Positions 4,061-15,426 of a stretch of DNA of 15,426 nt are shown piece after piece. The notes under the pieces were generated by a model, which saw only the letters and a program-made list of their open reading frames with translations, was not told where the DNA came from and ran no database searches. Made by a program: the position numbers and the translations under genes. Positions within the stretch are counted from its first letter, which is position 1; every line of letters begins with the position of its first letter. Source of the stretch: a virus (lineage: Duplodnaviria; Heunggongvirae; Uroviricota; Caudoviricetes). Location of the stretch: the IMG/VR virus record IMGVR_UViG_2651869755_000004, one strand, 5' to 3'.

Positions 4061-4741
4061 TTACCCCTGCCGCCCGATAACCACGACCTTTCCGCCCCCG
4101 CCTTCATCACGGGTGCTGATGTCCTGGGATATACGGCGGGAGCCAACCAGCATTTCCCCGTAAGGCACCGGCATCGGGTTCCCCTGGGCAATCATGTTAT
4201 CCAGTGAGGAAAAGTACGTGTTCTGTCTGCCGTTATCCGTTGCGCGGTAATCCGGTGTTTTTGCCTTCGGGGCCAGCATCTGGGCCACACCGCCCAGAAT
4301 CATGCTGGCTCCAAGTGAAAACAGCATCGTGGTGGCAGAAAAACCACCGGCTGCCAGGGCTGAACCCCATAACGCCATTGATGCCCCGGCAGTGAAGAAA
4401 GAGCCCACGATGGCTGCCGCCCCCAGCACAATCTGCAGTCCACCCTTTCCGGCCCCGGCCAGTCGCGGCACAATGTGGATGACCGTTCCCTCACCCAGCT
4501 GTTCGTGAAGACGGGCGTACACCGCCTCCGGTGCCGTGTCATAACCGGCAATACGTATCTGGTACCAGCCTTCGTTCATCTGACGGCGAAAGCCCGGCAT
4601 CTGCATCGACAGGGCGCGAATGGCTTCCGCTGCCGTGTTCACATACAGGCTGAGGCGGCGGCCAAATCGTTGTAAATCCCCGTGAAGGCAGATGCGTGCC
4701 AGTGGCGGTGACGCCAGACTGAATGCGTTCGTCGTTGCCAT
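4061..4741 (-). CDS. I: Tail tip assembly protein I
   Basis: 226-aa ORF MATTNAFSLASPPLARICLHGDLQRFGRR...KVVVIGRQG matches lambda gpI from memory, including the Gly/Ala-rich hydrophobic central segment. Correct position between K and J. Confidence 0.95.
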   Translation of the reverse strand: MATTNAFSLASPPLARICLHGDLQRFGRRLSLYVNTAAEAIRALSMQMPGFRRQMNEGWYQIRIAGYDTAPEAVYARLHEQLGEGTVIHIVPRLAGAGKGGLQIVLGAAAIVGSFFTAGASMALWGSALAAGGFSATTMLFSLGASMILGGVAQMLAPKAKTPDYRATDNGRQNTYFSSLDNMIAQGNPMPVPYGEMLVGSRRISQDISTRDEGGGGKVVVIGRQG

Positions 4742-5382
4742 TTTTCGGAATACCTCTCCCGTTTACTCAGTTGTTCAGGCAGATGGTGAAGCAGCTCACC
4801 GTTGCCGCAGTAAATGGCGGCATGGTTCGGTACCGAAGCACCAAAGCAGCACAGCAGAATATCGCCCGCCTGTGCAGAGGACAGGGGCACCCGGTAAAAG
4901 CCGGTGACCGCCATATTGTCCAGGTAAAGGTTCTGACCGTTGCGCCACCAGTCATCCTCGCGATGAAAATCCGGCATCTCAGTCCCCGCCAGATGATAAG
5001 CATCCCGGAACAGCGTGTAACAGTCCGTCACCCCGTGCTCAAAGCGCCGTCCTGTCAGATGTGGCACACAGCGGAATTTGTGAATGTCACCCCGGCAGAC
5101 CAGCCACCAGGGCAGTGCGCTTTTTATCTGCAGCCGCCGGTCAGCCTCGCTCAGCCAGGGCAGCCCACCGGGATGACTGTGGACCAGTGCCACAATCTCC
5201 CCCTGCATCTCTGCCCGCAGCCAGTCTTCCGGTGCGATACGAAAATACGCCTCCGGCTCTGCAGAAATATTCACACAAGGGATATACCACTCCCCCTCCG
5301 GCGTGCTTATCACGAAGCCGCACGACTCCGCAGGCGCACACCGCCGGGCATGCGCCAGAATCGCTGATTCAGTCTGTGTCAT
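4639..5382 (-). CDS. K: Tail tip assembly protein K (N-terminal JAMM/MPN domain plus C-terminal NlpC/P60 domain)
   Basis: Start taken at the internal ATG 5382..5380 (MTQTESAILAHARRCAPAESCGF...), 10 nt after the L stop. JAMM motif HSHPGGLPWLSEAD (HxHx7Sx2D) is intact. NlpC/P60 Cys (DCYTLF) and His (VPNHAAIY, LLHH) are present. The reading frame overlaps the I start by 103 bp. Confidence 0.9.
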   Translation of the reverse strand: MTQTESAILAHARRCAPAESCGFVISTPEGEWYIPCVNISAEPEAYFRIAPEDWLRAEMQGEIVALVHSHPGGLPWLSEADRRLQIKSALPWWLVCRGDIHKFRCVPHLTGRRFEHGVTDCYTLFRDAYHLAGTEMPDFHREDDWWRNGQNLYLDNMAVTGFYRVPLSSAQAGDILLCCFGASVPNHAAIYCGNGELLHHLPEQLSKRERYSEKWQRRTHSVWRHRHWHASAFTGIYNDLAAASACM

Positions 5383-5392
5383 AAACCGGGAT

Positions 5393-6091
5393 TTACTGCG
5401 AAAGTTTATTAATGGAAAGGAAACCGCCAAAATTGCCGACATTCCTGCGCAGTTCACACCCGCGCATGCACTTGCTGCATCTGTCCTTACGGATATCCGT
5501 GGTGGGGTTGTCGAACTCATCCGCCACCGCAGGACCGTTATACCCGCATTCATCTCCCCGGTAATCCCACATACAGGTGTTCGCCAGCATGATGCGACCG
5601 GGAAACAGCGCCCCGTCCGTCTCGGTCGGTGTAGCCAGCACAAACGAGGCCGTCATGGCTGTCAGCTGCGACATCTGCTCCACCACCCAGCGGTCACTCA
5701 GCTCCTGCTCCGGGTCCGCCTCCGGATTGCCCGCAACGAAATTCACCGCATCCAGAAAACGGGCATACACCCGGCGGCGGACCACCGTGGCCCCCACCAG
5801 ACTCTGCAGGTCTTCCGCCATCCCGGTGACCAGACCAAACAGATTGGACACCGTCAGCGATGGTCTGGCACTGCTGCCCTTCCCGTTCATCTCAAAGCCA
5901 CTCCCCTCAATCGGGTACGCCTGATATTCACGCCCCTGCCAGGTCACCGGCTCCCCTTTTTCATTCAGCTCATTGCAGAAAAAATACCGCTCACCGCCCT
6001 GCACCGTCAGGTCGATTTCCCAGAGTACCACCCGCGGTGACTGCTCTGACTTAACCGACTCGTTCAGACTTTCTTCGCGAATATCCTGCAT
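5393..6091 (-). CDS. L: Tail tip protein L
   Basis: 232-aa ORF MQDIREESLNESVKSEQSPRVVLWEIDL...NVGNFGGFLSINKLSQ matches lambda gpL, including the C-terminal cysteine cluster (CMWDY, CGYNG, CSKC, MRGC). Confidence 0.95.
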   Translation of the reverse strand: MQDIREESLNESVKSEQSPRVVLWEIDLTVQGGERYFFCNELNEKGEPVTWQGREYQAYPIEGSGFEMNGKGSSARPSLTVSNLFGLVTGMAEDLQSLVGATVVRRRVYARFLDAVNFVAGNPEADPEQELSDRWVVEQMSQLTAMTASFVLATPTETDGALFPGRIMLANTCMWDYRGDECGYNGPAVADEFDNPTTDIRKDRCSKCMRGCELRRNVGNFGGFLSINKLSQ

Positions 6092-13423: not shown

Positions 13424-13770
13424 TTACGGCAGAGCCGCGTGACTCAGGGCTGTGCCGGCAAAGGCATTTGCCTTTTTGTGTTCATCCACACTGTCAGGCC
13501 AGCGGATTGCCTCCGTCGCAAAGGTCCCCGACTTGTAATAGGTCAGCACCGTCTCTGTGCCTTCAAGCGGCAGTACCAGTATGCCAACCGCACTACCGGC
13601 TTTCTGTCCATCCCAGACCACCAGTTTCCCGGTGGCTTCATCCAGCATCAGGGCGTCAGAGCCGGTGTTGCAGAAGAAATCCCGCTGCTGCCTGTGGCGG
13701 TATGAGCCGGATCATTACCGGCAAAAATACGTACTTCCGCACGCTGTTCAGTGATGGTTTTCGTCACCAT
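13424..13770 (-). pseudogene. D: Head decoration protein D, interrupted by an apparent 1-bp deletion
   Basis: ATG at 13770 (GAGG 9 nt upstream) encodes MVTKTITEQRAEVRIFAGNDPAHTATGSSGISSATPALTP, then TGA at 13650..13648. The gpD homology continues in the -1 frame as (A)LMLDEATGKLVVWDG...FAGTALSHAALP to 13424. Sequence reads ACG CCC TGA TGC TGG where ACG CCN CTG ATG CTG would keep the frame. Confidence 0.6.
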
Positions 13771-13806: not shown

Positions 13807-14409
13807 TCATGGCATGGCCATGAGCATTTTCACGTCCGCATCACCGTCTGCTGACGTCTGTGACACGCCACCCCGCACCGCTGCCGGTGAATGATTCGCC
13901 ATGAAATGTTCAAACAAGGCGGTTGTGGATGCAGAGACCGGTTCGGCCTTACCTGATCCCGCAGCCAGCACAGCCCGGGCGTTCTCCACGGTCATTCCCG
14001 GGCAGGCCGCCAGTTTTTCAGCCTGCGCTTCTGCCCCTTTTGCCTCATCCAGGGCCATGATCTGATCACGAAGTGAGGGCCCGGCATTCGCCTGCGGTGA
14101 GGCAGCCAGGATCGGGCGGGCTTTTTCCACCGTCATCTCCGGCATCGCCGCCAGCGTTGCCGCCAGTTGTTCACGACCTTTCGCTTCTTCACACGCCATA
14201 ATGCGATCGGCTTCACTCTGCGCGGATGCCACCGGCTGCTGTGGTGCCGCCGCGGCCAGAATCGCCCGGGCCTGTTCAATGCTCATGCCCTGTTGTCCTG
14301 CCAGCATCGTGGCAAGCTGTTCACGTCCTTTCGCTTCCTGACACGTCAGGATCCCCATCACTCGCTGGTTCTCCTGCGCGGCAGCTTCCGTTGCAGTTAA
14401 TTGCGGCAT
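13807..14409 (-). CDS. Nu3: Scaffolding protein Nu3-like, nested in frame within the 3' part of C
   Basis: Internal ATG at 14409..14407 (MPQLTATEAAAQENQRVMGIL...) is preceded by a strong AGGAGG Shine-Dalgarno 6 nt upstream. Same nested C/Nu3 arrangement as lambda. Carries three tandem ~45-aa repeats. Confidence 0.6.
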   Translation of the reverse strand: MPQLTATEAAAQENQRVMGILTCQEAKGREQLATMLAGQQGMSIEQARAILAAAAPQQPVASAQSEADRIMACEEAKGREQLAATLAAMPEMTVEKARPILAASPQANAGPSLRDQIMALDEAKGAEAQAEKLAACPGMTVENARAVLAAGSGKAEPVSASTTALFEHFMANHSPAAVRGGVSQTSADGDADVKMLMAMP

Positions 14410-15210
14410 AGTGCCTCCTGTATCATGAGTGTTCAGCGCCGCAGCCATCACGCTGATGGCATCCGACGCATTGATTAATTCATCCGCCAGTCCGGCCTTA
14501 ATAGCGGACTGACCTTCAAAAACGGCAGCCTCTGTCCCCGTGACAGCTTCCACAGACAGCCCCGTATACATCGCCACTTTTTCGGCAAACATCCGGTGCG
14601 CCGCATCAACCCGCTGCTGCATGTCCTGACGCACCTCTGCCGGTAAGGCTTCAAACTGATTGCCATCCACCTTGTGCGCCCCGGCATAAATCAGCGTGAT
14701 ATCCACCCCGGCCTGCGCCAGATGACCGGCATAGCTGACATGGCTCATCATCACGCCAATGGAGCCGATACGGGATGTCTGGGTAACCAGCCGTCGGGAG
14801 CAGGCCGACGCCAGCAGCATGGCTGCAGAACAGGCCGTGTCATTGCACAGTGCCCAGACCGGCTTCTGCTGACGGAGGCGGTAAATCATGTCAGCGCAGT
14901 CAAACGCGCCGGCGGCCTGCCCGCCCGGACTGTCAATGTCCAGCAGTACGCCCCGCACCTGGCTATCTGCCATTGCCTGCTGAAGACAGGCGACAATGCC
15001 GTCATAGCCTGTCATTCCGGAAAATGGCCGCATACCGCCCAGCCGGTGCACCAGCGTGCCGGTCACCGGCAGTACAGCAATACCGTTCACCACCCGGTAA
15101 ACACGGGCCGGTCGTTTACCTCCGGCCATGTACTCGTCCGTTTCAGCCAGCATTCCGGGAGCATCAAGCTGTACCTGCGTAAGCGTAAACTGACCGCCGT
15201 ATGTAGCCAT
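13807..15210 (-). CDS. C: Head maturation protease C (S49/ClpP-like) with in-frame scaffold part; 5' end appears truncated
   Basis: 467-aa ORF with protease core ...YRVVNGIAVLPVTGTL...GVLLDIDSPGG...VWALCNDTACSAAMLLASA...SIGVMMSH..., as in lambda gpC. Only about 35 residues precede the conserved core versus about 85 in lambda. No ribosome-binding site at the apparent start; the frame is closed by TAA at 15229..15231. Confidence 0.85.
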   Translation of the reverse strand: MATYGGQFTLTQVQLDAPGMLAETDEYMAGGKRPARVYRVVNGIAVLPVTGTLVHRLGGMRPFSGMTGYDGIVACLQQAMADSQVRGVLLDIDSPGGQAAGAFDCADMIYRLRQQKPVWALCNDTACSAAMLLASACSRRLVTQTSRIGSIGVMMSHVSYAGHLAQAGVDITLIYAGAHKVDGNQFEALPAEVRQDMQQRVDAAHRMFAEKVAMYTGLSVEAVTGTEAAVFEGQSAIKAGLADELINASDAISVMAAALNTHDTGGTMPQLTATEAAAQENQRVMGILTCQEAKGREQLATMLAGQQGMSIEQARAILAAAAPQQPVASAQSEADRIMACEEAKGREQLAATLAAMPEMTVEKARPILAASPQANAGPSLRDQIMALDEAKGAEAQAEKLAACPGMTVENARAVLAAGSGKAEPVSASTTALFEHFMANHSPAAVRGGVSQTSADGDADVKMLMAMP

Positions 15211-15223
15211 CAGACGAGAATTG

Positions 15224-15426
15224 GTAACTTAGACGCCCATCTGATATAGACGGACATCTAAGTATGGAATTACAGGACTGGCGAAAAGAACCTCGTAAAA
15301 ACTATTCGAATGAATTCAAACTTCGTATGGTGGAACTGGCATCACAACCTGGAGCTTGTGTTGCACAGATTGCACGTGAAAATGGCGTCAATGATAATGT
15401 TATTTTCAAATGGCTCAGGCTCTGGC
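15224..15426 (+). mobile_element. Left end of an IS element (family unresolved, IS3- or IS66-like) abutting the truncated C gene
   Basis: The C reading frame is closed within 20 bp upstream of its apparent start, and a transposase ORF begins 54 bp away on the other strand. The candidate terminal sequence starts GTAACTTAGACGCCC at 15224. The exact boundary is not proven and the other end lies outside the window. Confidence 0.45.
15264..15426 (+). CDS. Insertion-sequence transposase OrfA-type helix-turn-helix protein, 5' part only (runs off the window)
   Basis: Plus-strand ATG at 15264 encodes MELQDWRKEPRKNYSNEFKLRMVELASQPGACVAQIARENGVNDNVIFKWLRLW. The EFK...V.L......VAQIARE.GVN.N.I.KW pattern is typical of the HTH_Tnp_1 fold of IS3-type OrfA proteins. 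Opposite orientation to all phage genes. Confidence 0.6.
   Translation, partial: MELQDWRKEPRKNYSNEFKLRMVELASQPGACVAQIARENGVNDNVIFKWLRLW

What the first reader, a model, noticed from the sequence alone, without database searches (positions are those of the whole stretch)
15211..15426. IS element abuts a 5'-truncated C gene; portal and terminase genes are not where lambda has them
In lambda, C is preceded by B, W, A and Nu1 and its start overlaps the end of B. Here the C frame closes about 20 bp upstream of its apparent start, the N-terminal region is roughly 45 aa shorter than lambda gpC, there is no ribosome-binding site, and an oppositely oriented HTH transposase ORF starts 54 bp away. The likeliest reading is an IS insertion into the 5' part of C, possibly with an adjacent deletion, which would inactivate head assembly. 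Together with the D frameshift this points to a decaying prophage whose tail genes remain intact.
Basis: partly seen in the sequence, partly recalled or inferred. Interest (0 to 1): 0.5.

Follow-up and report, generated by a model that had tools for sequence, protein, structure and literature searches.

The report
IS66-family element splits prophage protease gene
A common E. coli jumping gene (an ISEc23-like IS66-family insertion sequence) has landed 142 bases into the head-protease/scaffold gene of a phage-21-like prophage, and the draft contig stops inside it; this is an ordinary way for prophages to be disabled.

Summary

1. The IS starts at 15179 (GTAAGCG...), not 15211. The "apparent start" of C (ATG at 15210) and its first 10.7 codons (MATYGGQFTLT) are IS sequence. 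Gene-derived sequence ends at 15178.

2. There is no adjacent deletion in the relatives that can be checked. Two complete chromosomes carry the same junction. Both show a complete 2532-bp element (tnpA, tnpB, tnpC) flanked by an 8-bp duplication, GCAGGTAC. The first 142 nt of C, the portal, gpW, the large terminase and Nu1 follow directly beyond it. A draft genome identical to the window over 2972 bp, including the D frameshift, has the portal-side junction on another contig.

The window is contig LJYC01000053.1 of E. coli JA37, a urosepsis blood isolate assembled from 2x250 MiSeq reads. It ends 248 bp into the repeat.

The intact gene is phage 21 gene 5, which is 501 aa. Its first 45 residues are displaced, and no ribosome-binding site precedes the IS-borne ATG. 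The nested Nu3-like scaffold gene is intact.

Loss of protease function is inferred, not shown. The portal-side junction in JA37 itself was not seen.

This is an ordinary IS insertion in a prophage gene: low interest, already known in kind.

The parts
13807..15178 (-). 3' portion of the prohead protease/scaffold gene. It is the homologue of phage 21 gene 5 and lambda C, an S49 peptidase. It covers codons 46-501 plus the stop, and the first 134 unique nt are displaced to the far side of the IS.
   Evidence: 100% identical to intact S49 peptidase genes of many E. coli prophages up to 15178 and no further. 99.2% identical to phage 21 gene 5. Pfam Peptidase_S49 at 124.8 bits. Protein alignment.
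15171..15178 (.). One copy of the 8-bp target-site duplication. It reads GTACCTGC on the + strand and GCAGGTAC on the gene strand.
   Evidence: In L004 and L005 the same octamer flanks both ends of the 2532-bp IS. The uninterrupted gene has it once.
15179..15426 (+). Left end of an ISEc23-like IS66-family insertion sequence: the first 248 of 2532 bp. The contig ends inside it.
   Evidence: 100% identical to IS copies in L002, L003 and L005. RefSeq names the transposase of those copies 'IS66-like element ISEc23 family transposase'. The window is a 2x250-bp MiSeq draft contig.
15179..15202 (+). Left terminal inverted repeat (IRL), GTAAGCGTAAACTGACCGCCGTAT.
   Evidence: Pairs with the right end ATACGGTGCTCCGTTGACGCTTAC in full copies. 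With the flanking base this is 25 nt at 84% complementarity.
15264..15426 (+). First 54 codons of tnpA, the IS66 accessory protein with an HTH (141 aa in full copies).
   Evidence: Pfam HTH_Tnp_1 E=7.7e-12. The full-length copy scores 83 bits against NCBIfam IS66_ISRel24_TnpA, cut-off 74. RefSeq annotates it as tnpA.
13807..15210 (-). Chimeric ORF of 467 codons. The ATG and 10 2/3 codons (MATYGGQFTLT) come from IS sequence 15179-15210 and are fused in frame to gp5 residues 46-501. There is no Shine-Dalgarno motif upstream, and an in-frame TAG lies at 15229-15231.
   Evidence: The identical ORF is present in 8 contigs of other assemblies.
13807..14409 (-). Nested in-frame scaffold gene (Nu3 equivalent, 200 aa) with AGGAGG 5 nt upstream of its ATG. 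It is untouched by the insertion.
   Evidence: Sequence read. It has the same length and position as the annotated phage 21 scaffolding CDS 5309-5911 and its RBS.

Best explanation
An ISEc23-like IS66-family insertion sequence (2532 bp; tnpA, tnpB, tnpC; about 24-nt imperfect terminal repeats starting GTAAGCG) transposed into codon 48 of the prohead protease/scaffold gene of a phage-21-like lambdoid prophage. That gene is the homologue of phage 21 gene 5 and lambda C. The insertion duplicated 8 bp (GCAGGTAC). The IS genes point opposite to the phage late genes.

The gene is split in two.
- A 142-nt 5' piece stays attached to the portal gene on the far side of the IS and reads into the IS as a 61-codon ORF.
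- The 3' piece is in this window.

By accident the IS left end supplies an outward-reading ATG in frame with the 3' piece.

The portal, W, terminase and Nu1 genes are not missing. They sit 2.5 kb further on, beyond the IS. The short-read contig stops about one read length into this multi-copy repeat.

Shown:
- the IS identity, the exact boundary and the displaced 45 codons;
- the target duplication, and intact upstream head and packaging genes, in two complete sister chromosomes;
- the portal-side junction, with portal, gpW and the large terminase, in one near-identical draft.

Inferred:
- the same layout holds in strain JA37 itself;
- the full-length protease is no longer made, because the conserved N-terminal 45 residues and the native translation start are lost and no RBS precedes the new ATG. 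The prophage therefore cannot mature heads on its own;
- the nested scaffold gene, D/E and the tail genes can still be expressed from the Q-antiterminated late transcript.
For: **Boundary.** Megablast of 14800-15426 against 5426 complete E. coli genomes matches intact S49 peptidase genes only over 14800-15178. The stretch 15170-15426 matches tnpA ends of IS66-like elements. The four-way alignment puts the switch at CCTGC|GTAAGCG.

**Full IS copies.** These are 2532 bp with terminal inverted repeats and an 8-bp duplication.

**Sister genomes.** The exact chimeric protein occurs on 8 other contigs. These include chromosomes UGFX01000002.1 and OZ038772.1. Their gene order is Nu1 - A - W - portal - C 5' fragment - IS (tnpC 537, tnpB 116, tnpA 141 aa) - chimeric C - D - E - tail genes.

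**Flanks.** The flanks read ...ACAACAGCAGGTAC|GTAAGCG...CGCTTAC|GCAGGTACAGCTTG in both chromosomes. The IS there is 99.96% identical to an ISEc23-family copy, and its end is 100% identical to the window.

**IS proteins.** NCBIfam scores are IS66 transposase 452 bits (cut-off 180), IS66 TnpB 121 bits (cut-off 50) and IS66 TnpA 83 bits (cut-off 74).

**Similarity to the window.** The window is 99.75-99.79% identical to those chromosomes over 11.6 kb. It is 100% identical over 2972 bp to a contig of GCA_037636905.1. Another contig of that assembly carries terminase - W - portal - C 5' fragment - IS right end.

**Intact gene.** It is 501 aa, its start overlaps the portal gene by 11 nt, and it has an annotated RBS. 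Of gp5 residues 4-32, 23 of 29 are identical to lambda gpC.

**Role of C.** In lambda, C is the head protease that joins the portal and Nu3 in the initiator of head assembly (PMC3224144).

**Source.** The source strain and sequencing method come from PMC4722275.
Against: **JA37 itself.** The far junction was not observed in JA37. The window stops inside the IS, and the JA37 assembly was not among the contigs returned for the 61-aa 5' fragment.

**Other flanks.** Two short-read contigs (L026, L027) join the portal-side junction through the IS to unrelated flanks. This is either misassembly through a repeat or genuine IS-IS recombination in some samples. A later rearrangement in JA37 therefore cannot be excluded.

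**Protease function.** Loss of function is not demonstrated. The lost 45 residues lie outside the region that aligns with solved SppA structures, which is residues 77-290. The S49 domain of the chimeric ORF is complete. A weakly translated, truncated but active enzyme is therefore possible.

**Promoter.** No outward promoter was found, but the scan is a simple consensus test.
Confidence: 0.9

Rival explanations
1. The IS insertion was followed, in strain JA37 specifically, by an IS-mediated adjacent deletion, inversion or recombination with another ISEc23 copy. On this reading the portal and terminase genes are no longer next to the IS, or are lost.
For: The window ends inside the IS, so its far side is unseen. 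ISEc23-like ends occur at a median of 2 and up to 14 places per genome, which gives substrates for recombination. Contigs L026 and L027 link the portal-side junction through the IS to unrelated flanks. The JA37 assembly was not among the contigs found for the 5' fragment.
Against: Both complete chromosomes with this junction show a simple insertion with a matching 8-bp duplication. The draft genome that is identical to the window over 2972 bp, including the D frameshift, has the portal-side junction with intact portal, W and large terminase. L026 and L027 are short-read contigs spanning a 2.5-kb multi-copy repeat and L027 has 3x coverage, so misassembly is likely.
Confidence: 0.07
2. The chimeric ORF is expressed from the IS-borne ATG or an internal start and yields a working N-terminally truncated protease. 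On this reading the prophage is still able to make heads.
For: The fusion is in frame and the S49 domain is complete. The lost residues lie outside the SppA-like core seen in solved structures. Q-modified late transcription would be expected to read through the IS (established lambda biology, not tested here).
Against: No Shine-Dalgarno motif precedes the ATG and no promoter-like site was found. The displaced N-terminus holds a block, gp5 residues 4-32, that is 23/29 identical between phage 21 gp5 and lambda gpC. Conservation at that level argues for a needed function. A sub-lineage has since acquired a frameshift in D, as expected if head genes are no longer under selection.
Confidence: 0.07
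3. The junction is an assembly artefact: a chimeric contig end joining a phage gene to an unrelated repeat.
For: It lies at the very end of a short-read draft contig. No complete RefSeq E. coli genome, GTDB representative, IMG/VR contig or GenBank phage holds the junction.
Against: The identical junction is present in seven independent assemblies besides the window's own contig, including two chromosome-length records. The complementary junction with the matching 8-bp duplication is present in several more.
Confidence: 0.01
4. This phage type naturally has a short C gene, and the HTH ORF is a phage gene at this position.
For: None beyond the appearance of an ATG-initiated 467-codon ORF.
Against: Viable phage 21 (99.2% identical here) and prophages 100% identical up to 15178 have a 501-aa gene overlapping the portal gene. 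The HTH ORF is IS66 tnpA and is found on chromosomes and plasmids in unrelated contexts.
Confidence: 0.005

Closest known systems
ISEc23 (IS66 family insertion sequence of E. coli)
   Same: It has the same terminal repeat (GTAAGCG...). Its tnpA start is the same, 100% identical over the 248 bp present. In sister genomes the 2532-bp element is 99.96% identical to a copy whose transposase RefSeq names 'ISEc23 family'. It makes an 8-bp target duplication, as reported for IS66 (PMC6778807).
   Different: Nothing differs in the element itself. Only the insertion site is particular. ISfinder could not be queried, so the name rests on RefSeq's labelling.
Phage 21 gene 5 / lambda gene C with nested Nu3 (S49 prohead protease-scaffold)
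   Same: It sits at the same position in the late operon and has the same S49 domain. It has the same nested scaffold gene with its own RBS. It is 93% protein identity to phage 21 gp5 and 55% to lambda gpC.
   Different: Here the first 45 codons and the native start are separated from the rest by 2.5 kb of IS and replaced by 11 IS-encoded codons. Like phage 21, and unlike lambda, the scaffold part carries three copies of a motif of about 40 aa.
IS-disrupted morphogenesis and packaging genes in lambdoid prophages of E. coli O157 Sakai (for example nu1 of Sp4)
   Same: An IS insertion in a head or packaging gene of an otherwise largely complete lambdoid prophage. Such defects can be complemented by co-resident prophages (PMC2669165).
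   Different: The IS family, the target gene and the host lineage all differ (a urosepsis isolate). No experimental data exist for this prophage.

Membership tests
IS66 family (ISEc23-like) | Imperfect terminal inverted repeats of about 20-30 bp beginning 5'-GTAAGCG | tested here: met
   IRL lies at 15179-15202. In full copies it pairs with the right end (25 nt, 84%). The window holds only the left repeat. The family consensus is recalled from ISfinder, not checked here.
IS66 family (ISEc23-like) | 8-bp target-site duplication | tested here: met
   GCAGGTAC lies on both sides of the IS in L004 and L005. The window holds one copy at 15171-15178. The 8-bp figure for IS66 is in PMC6778807.
IS66 family (ISEc23-like) | Three genes: tnpA (HTH), tnpB and tnpC (DDE transposase) | tested here: met
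   In L005, tnpC scores 452 bits (cut-off 180), tnpB 121 bits (cut-off 50) and tnpA 83 bits (cut-off 74) against NCBIfam IS66 models. The window holds only tnpA codons 1-54 (Pfam HTH_Tnp_1).
IS66 family (ISEc23-like) | Ability to transpose | not testable with these tools
   All three ORFs are full length in L004 and L005, and the element is multi-copy in many genomes. This is compatible with activity but is not proof of it.
Lambda gpC / phage 21 gp5 prohead protease-scaffold | S49 (SppA-like) peptidase domain | tested here: met
   Pfam PF01343 at 124.8 bits against a cut-off of 24.9, residues 112-259 of the chimeric ORF. PDB SppA chains align to gp5 residues 77-290. Catalytic residues were not examined individually.
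Lambda gpC / phage 21 gp5 prohead protease-scaffold | Complete N-terminus, with the start overlapping the end of the portal gene | tested here: not met
   Residues 1-45 are absent from the window ORF. The intact genes overlap the portal gene by 11 nt (phage 21, L001) or 20 nt (lambda). The window therefore holds a disrupted allele of the family, not a functional member.
Lambda gpC / phage 21 gp5 prohead protease-scaffold | Nested in-frame scaffold gene (Nu3) sharing the C-terminus | tested here: met
   ATG at 14409 (-) preceded by AGGAGG, 200 codons, the same as the phage 21 CDS 5309-5911.

The most novel reading that the evidence does not exclude
The outward-reading ATG in the ISEc23 left end gives a translated, N-terminally remodelled protease that keeps some activity. 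Alternatively, this insertion is maintained by selection because it blocks virion production while leaving tail, scaffold and lysis genes usable by co-resident phages. Either would make it more than a neutral step in prophage decay. The insertion is shared by at least about a dozen samples and is older than the D frameshift.
Probability: 0.05. Interest if true: 0.3.

Novelty: already known. Interest (0 to 1): 0.1.

Why it matters
It matters little beyond correct annotation.

- **Apparent loss of genes.** The apparent loss of portal and terminase genes is a contig-end effect of a multi-copy IS.
- **Annotation.** The 467-aa 'S49 peptidase' called in several public assemblies is a chimeric, probably non-functional ORF. 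Its first 11 residues are IS-encoded.
- **Prophage biology.** It is one more example of IS-driven inactivation of a morphogenesis gene. The order of events can be read here: the IS insertion came first and the D frameshift later, in a lineage that includes a urosepsis isolate.

Tried and rejected
- **Exact 40-nt junction pattern.** There were no hits in GTDB representative genomes or IMG/VR.
- **Annotated collections.** No record in complete RefSeq E. coli genomes or GenBank phages spans the junction. The sister genomes had to be found by exact look-up of the chimeric protein.
- **The 61-aa 5' fragment.** The homology search returned only other truncated or partial N-terminal pieces. Its cluster representative P0016 led to contigs that merely end at nt 135-137 of the gene and hold no IS sequence, so this was a detour. 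The fragment itself was recovered by exact cluster look-up and located. JA37's own contig was not among the results.
- **Promoter and terminator scan of 14900-15426.** Nothing was found.
- **Literature.** Han et al. 2001 on IS66-family structure is not held in the library. The GTAA-type ends as a family trait therefore rest on my own knowledge.
- **Rejected readings.** These were a natural short C gene, an HTH ORF that is a phage gene, and an assembly chimera (see the rival explanations).

Full report
**What is in the sequence**

The window carries lambdoid head and tail genes on the minus strand. Its last large ORF, 13807..15210 (-), has 467 codons and encodes an S49 peptidase: Pfam PF01343 at 124.8 bits against a cut-off of 24.9.

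- The ORF starts at an ATG at 15208-15210.
- An in-frame TAG lies six codons upstream, at 15229-15231.
- No Shine-Dalgarno-like motif precedes the ATG.
- On the plus strand an ORF starts at 15264 and runs off the window. Its 54 codons match Pfam HTH_Tnp_1, E=7.7e-12.

**Where the boundary really is**

Megablast of 14800-15426 against 5426 complete E. coli genomes found thousands of matches. None spanned the query.

- Intact 'S49 family peptidase' genes match at 100% only over 14800-15178.
- The stretch 15170-15426 matches the tnpA end of IS66-like elements at 99-100%.
- An alignment of the window with an intact gene and two IS copies places the switch at ...GTACCTGC|GTAAGCGTAAACTG..., between 15178 and 15179.

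The 32 nt at 15179-15210 therefore belong to the IS left end. They include the ATG and the codons for MATYGGQFTL plus two bases of the next codon. The 'apparent start' of C is an accident of the IS sequence.

**The element**

Full copies in L002 and L003 are 2532 bp.

- They carry tnpA (141 aa), tnpB (116 aa) and a transposase that RefSeq labels 'IS66-like element ISEc23 family' (537 aa).
- They have imperfect terminal repeats, GTAAGCG...CGCTTAC.
- In L003 they have an 8-bp duplication.

The three proteins pass the NCBIfam IS66 cut-offs. An 8-bp duplication is the reported value for IS66 (PMC6778807).

**What lies beyond the window**

An exact look-up of the 467-aa chimeric protein identified the window as NCBI contig LJYC01000053.1 (15426 bp). 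It also found the same protein on other assemblies, including two chromosome-length records, UGFX01000002.1 (L004) and OZ038772.1 (L005).

In both records the gene order is Nu1 (182 aa), large terminase (642 aa, split in L004), gpW (68), portal (530), the IS (tnpC, tnpB, tnpA on the opposite strand), the chimeric ORF, D, E, FI and onward to the tail genes.

The flanks read ACAACAGCAGGTAC|GTAAGCG...CGCTTAC|GCAGGTACAGCTTG. The uninterrupted gene reads ACAACAGCAGGTACAGCTTG. This is a clean transposition with an 8-bp duplication (GCAGGTAC) and no loss of phage DNA.

- The IS in L005 is 99.96% identical to the L003 copy.
- Its end is identical to window 15179-15426.
- The window is 99.75-99.79% identical to these chromosomes over 11.6 kb.

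**The closest relative of the window**

L007, a contig of GCA_037636905.1, is 100% identical to the window over 2972 bp. It shares the window's D frameshift. Another contig of the same assembly (L025) carries the large terminase, gpW, the portal, the 61-codon C 5' fragment and the IS right end.

This is the best available proxy for the window's own strain. JA37's own portal-side contig was not recovered.

Two short-read contigs (L026, L027) connect the portal-side junction through the IS to unrelated DNA. Misassembly through a 2.5-kb multi-copy repeat is the likelier cause. It leaves a small probability of IS-mediated rearrangement in individual strains.

**Source**

LJYC00000000 is E. coli JA37, a blood-culture isolate from a urosepsis patient. 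It was sequenced with 2x250-bp MiSeq reads and assembled with A5 (PMC4722275). The contig extends 248 bp into the IS, which is about one read length. That is what a repeat-induced contig end looks like.

**The gene that was hit**

The gene is 99.2% identical in DNA to phage 21 gene 5.

- In the annotated phage 21 genome this is 'capsid protease/scaffolding protein', 501 aa, with an RBS. Its start overlaps the portal gene by 11 nt. A nested 200-aa scaffolding CDS has its own RBS.
- Lambda has the same layout, with C at 4418-5737 and nu3 at 5132-5737.

The alignment shows that the window ORF equals gp5 residues 46-501 preceded by 11 IS-encoded residues. The displaced part includes a block, gp5 residues 4-32, that is 23/29 identical to lambda gpC. 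Solved SppA structures align only with residues 77-290. The lost segment is therefore an N-terminal extension outside the catalytic core, and its function is unknown.

The nested scaffold gene in the window (ATG 14409, AGGAGG upstream) is intact.

**Consequence (inferred)**

In lambda the C protease assembles with the portal and Nu3 into the initiator of head assembly (PMC3224144). That review cites Medina et al. 2010 for gpC as the viral protease.

The chimeric ORF has lost its native start, its RBS and 45 conserved residues. No promoter-like or RBS-like signal was found for it. The full-length protease is most likely not made, and the prophage could not mature heads unaided.

Lambdoid late transcription is Q-antiterminated (established knowledge). 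Downstream scaffold, capsid and tail genes may therefore still be expressed, and the defect could be complemented by co-resident prophages. That has been shown for IS-disrupted and otherwise defective prophages of O157 Sakai (PMC2669165).

**Order of decay**

The D frameshift is the loss of one C from a CCCC run (window GGG at 13651-13653).

- It is present in the window, L007 and L009.
- It is absent from L004, L005 and L008, which all carry the IS.

The IS insertion therefore came first and the D frameshift arose later in a sub-lineage. This fits relaxed selection on head genes.

**Verdict**

The finding is real and is correctly interpreted as an IS insertion in the 5' part of C.

- The boundary is 32 nt further left than stated.
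- The start codon is IS-derived.
- The portal and terminase genes are displaced by 2.5 kb rather than deleted. This is shown in sister genomes and inferred for JA37.

It is a routine event involving a known IS and a known gene. Its interest is low and its value is mainly for annotation.

Noticed in passing
window 13651-13653 (D homologue, minus strand, about 13424-13770): The head-decoration gene D is frameshifted by loss of one C from a CCCC run (GACGCCCCTG becomes GACGCCCTG). The same lesion is in two other assemblies (L007, L009). It is absent from three other IS-carrying relatives (L004, L005, L008), so it is probably real and younger than the IS insertion.
   Followed up: partly
L013-L022 (contig ends at nt 135-137 of the intact C homologue): Contigs in 65 blocks of the collection end at nt 135-137 of this gene, 5-7 nt before the IS insertion point. 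They hold no IS sequence. This may be a mosaic boundary between co-resident lambdoid prophages that breaks assemblies. It is unexplained.
   Followed up: partly
L026 2728 onward; L027 2805 onward: Two short-read contigs carry the portal-side C/IS junction but leave the IS left end into unrelated DNA instead of the C 3' part. This is either misassembly through the repeat or IS-IS recombination in those samples.
   Followed up: no
window 13850-14400 (minus strand; C-terminal scaffold part of the C homologue): The scaffold domain holds three tandem copies of a motif of about 40 aa (IMxCxEAKGxEQLAxxLAxxPGMTVExARxILAA). Lambda gpC/Nu3 has one. Phage 21 gp5 has the same three, so this is a feature of the phage 21 type and not a local anomaly.
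   Followed up: partly
P0001-P0053, P0002-P0033 sequences: Public E. coli assemblies hold many different short ORFs that begin with the same C N-terminus and then go out of frame or stop (55, 74, 82 and 103 aa). One 103-aa form has 155 member sequences. This gene is therefore disrupted independently and often in prophages.
   Followed up: no
L004 3662-5573 and 16222-18853: In the UGFX01000002.1 chromosome the large terminase and the tape-measure gene are each split into two ORFs. They are intact in L005 and, for the tape measure, in the window. This is either further decay in that strain or indel errors of the assembly.
   Followed up: no
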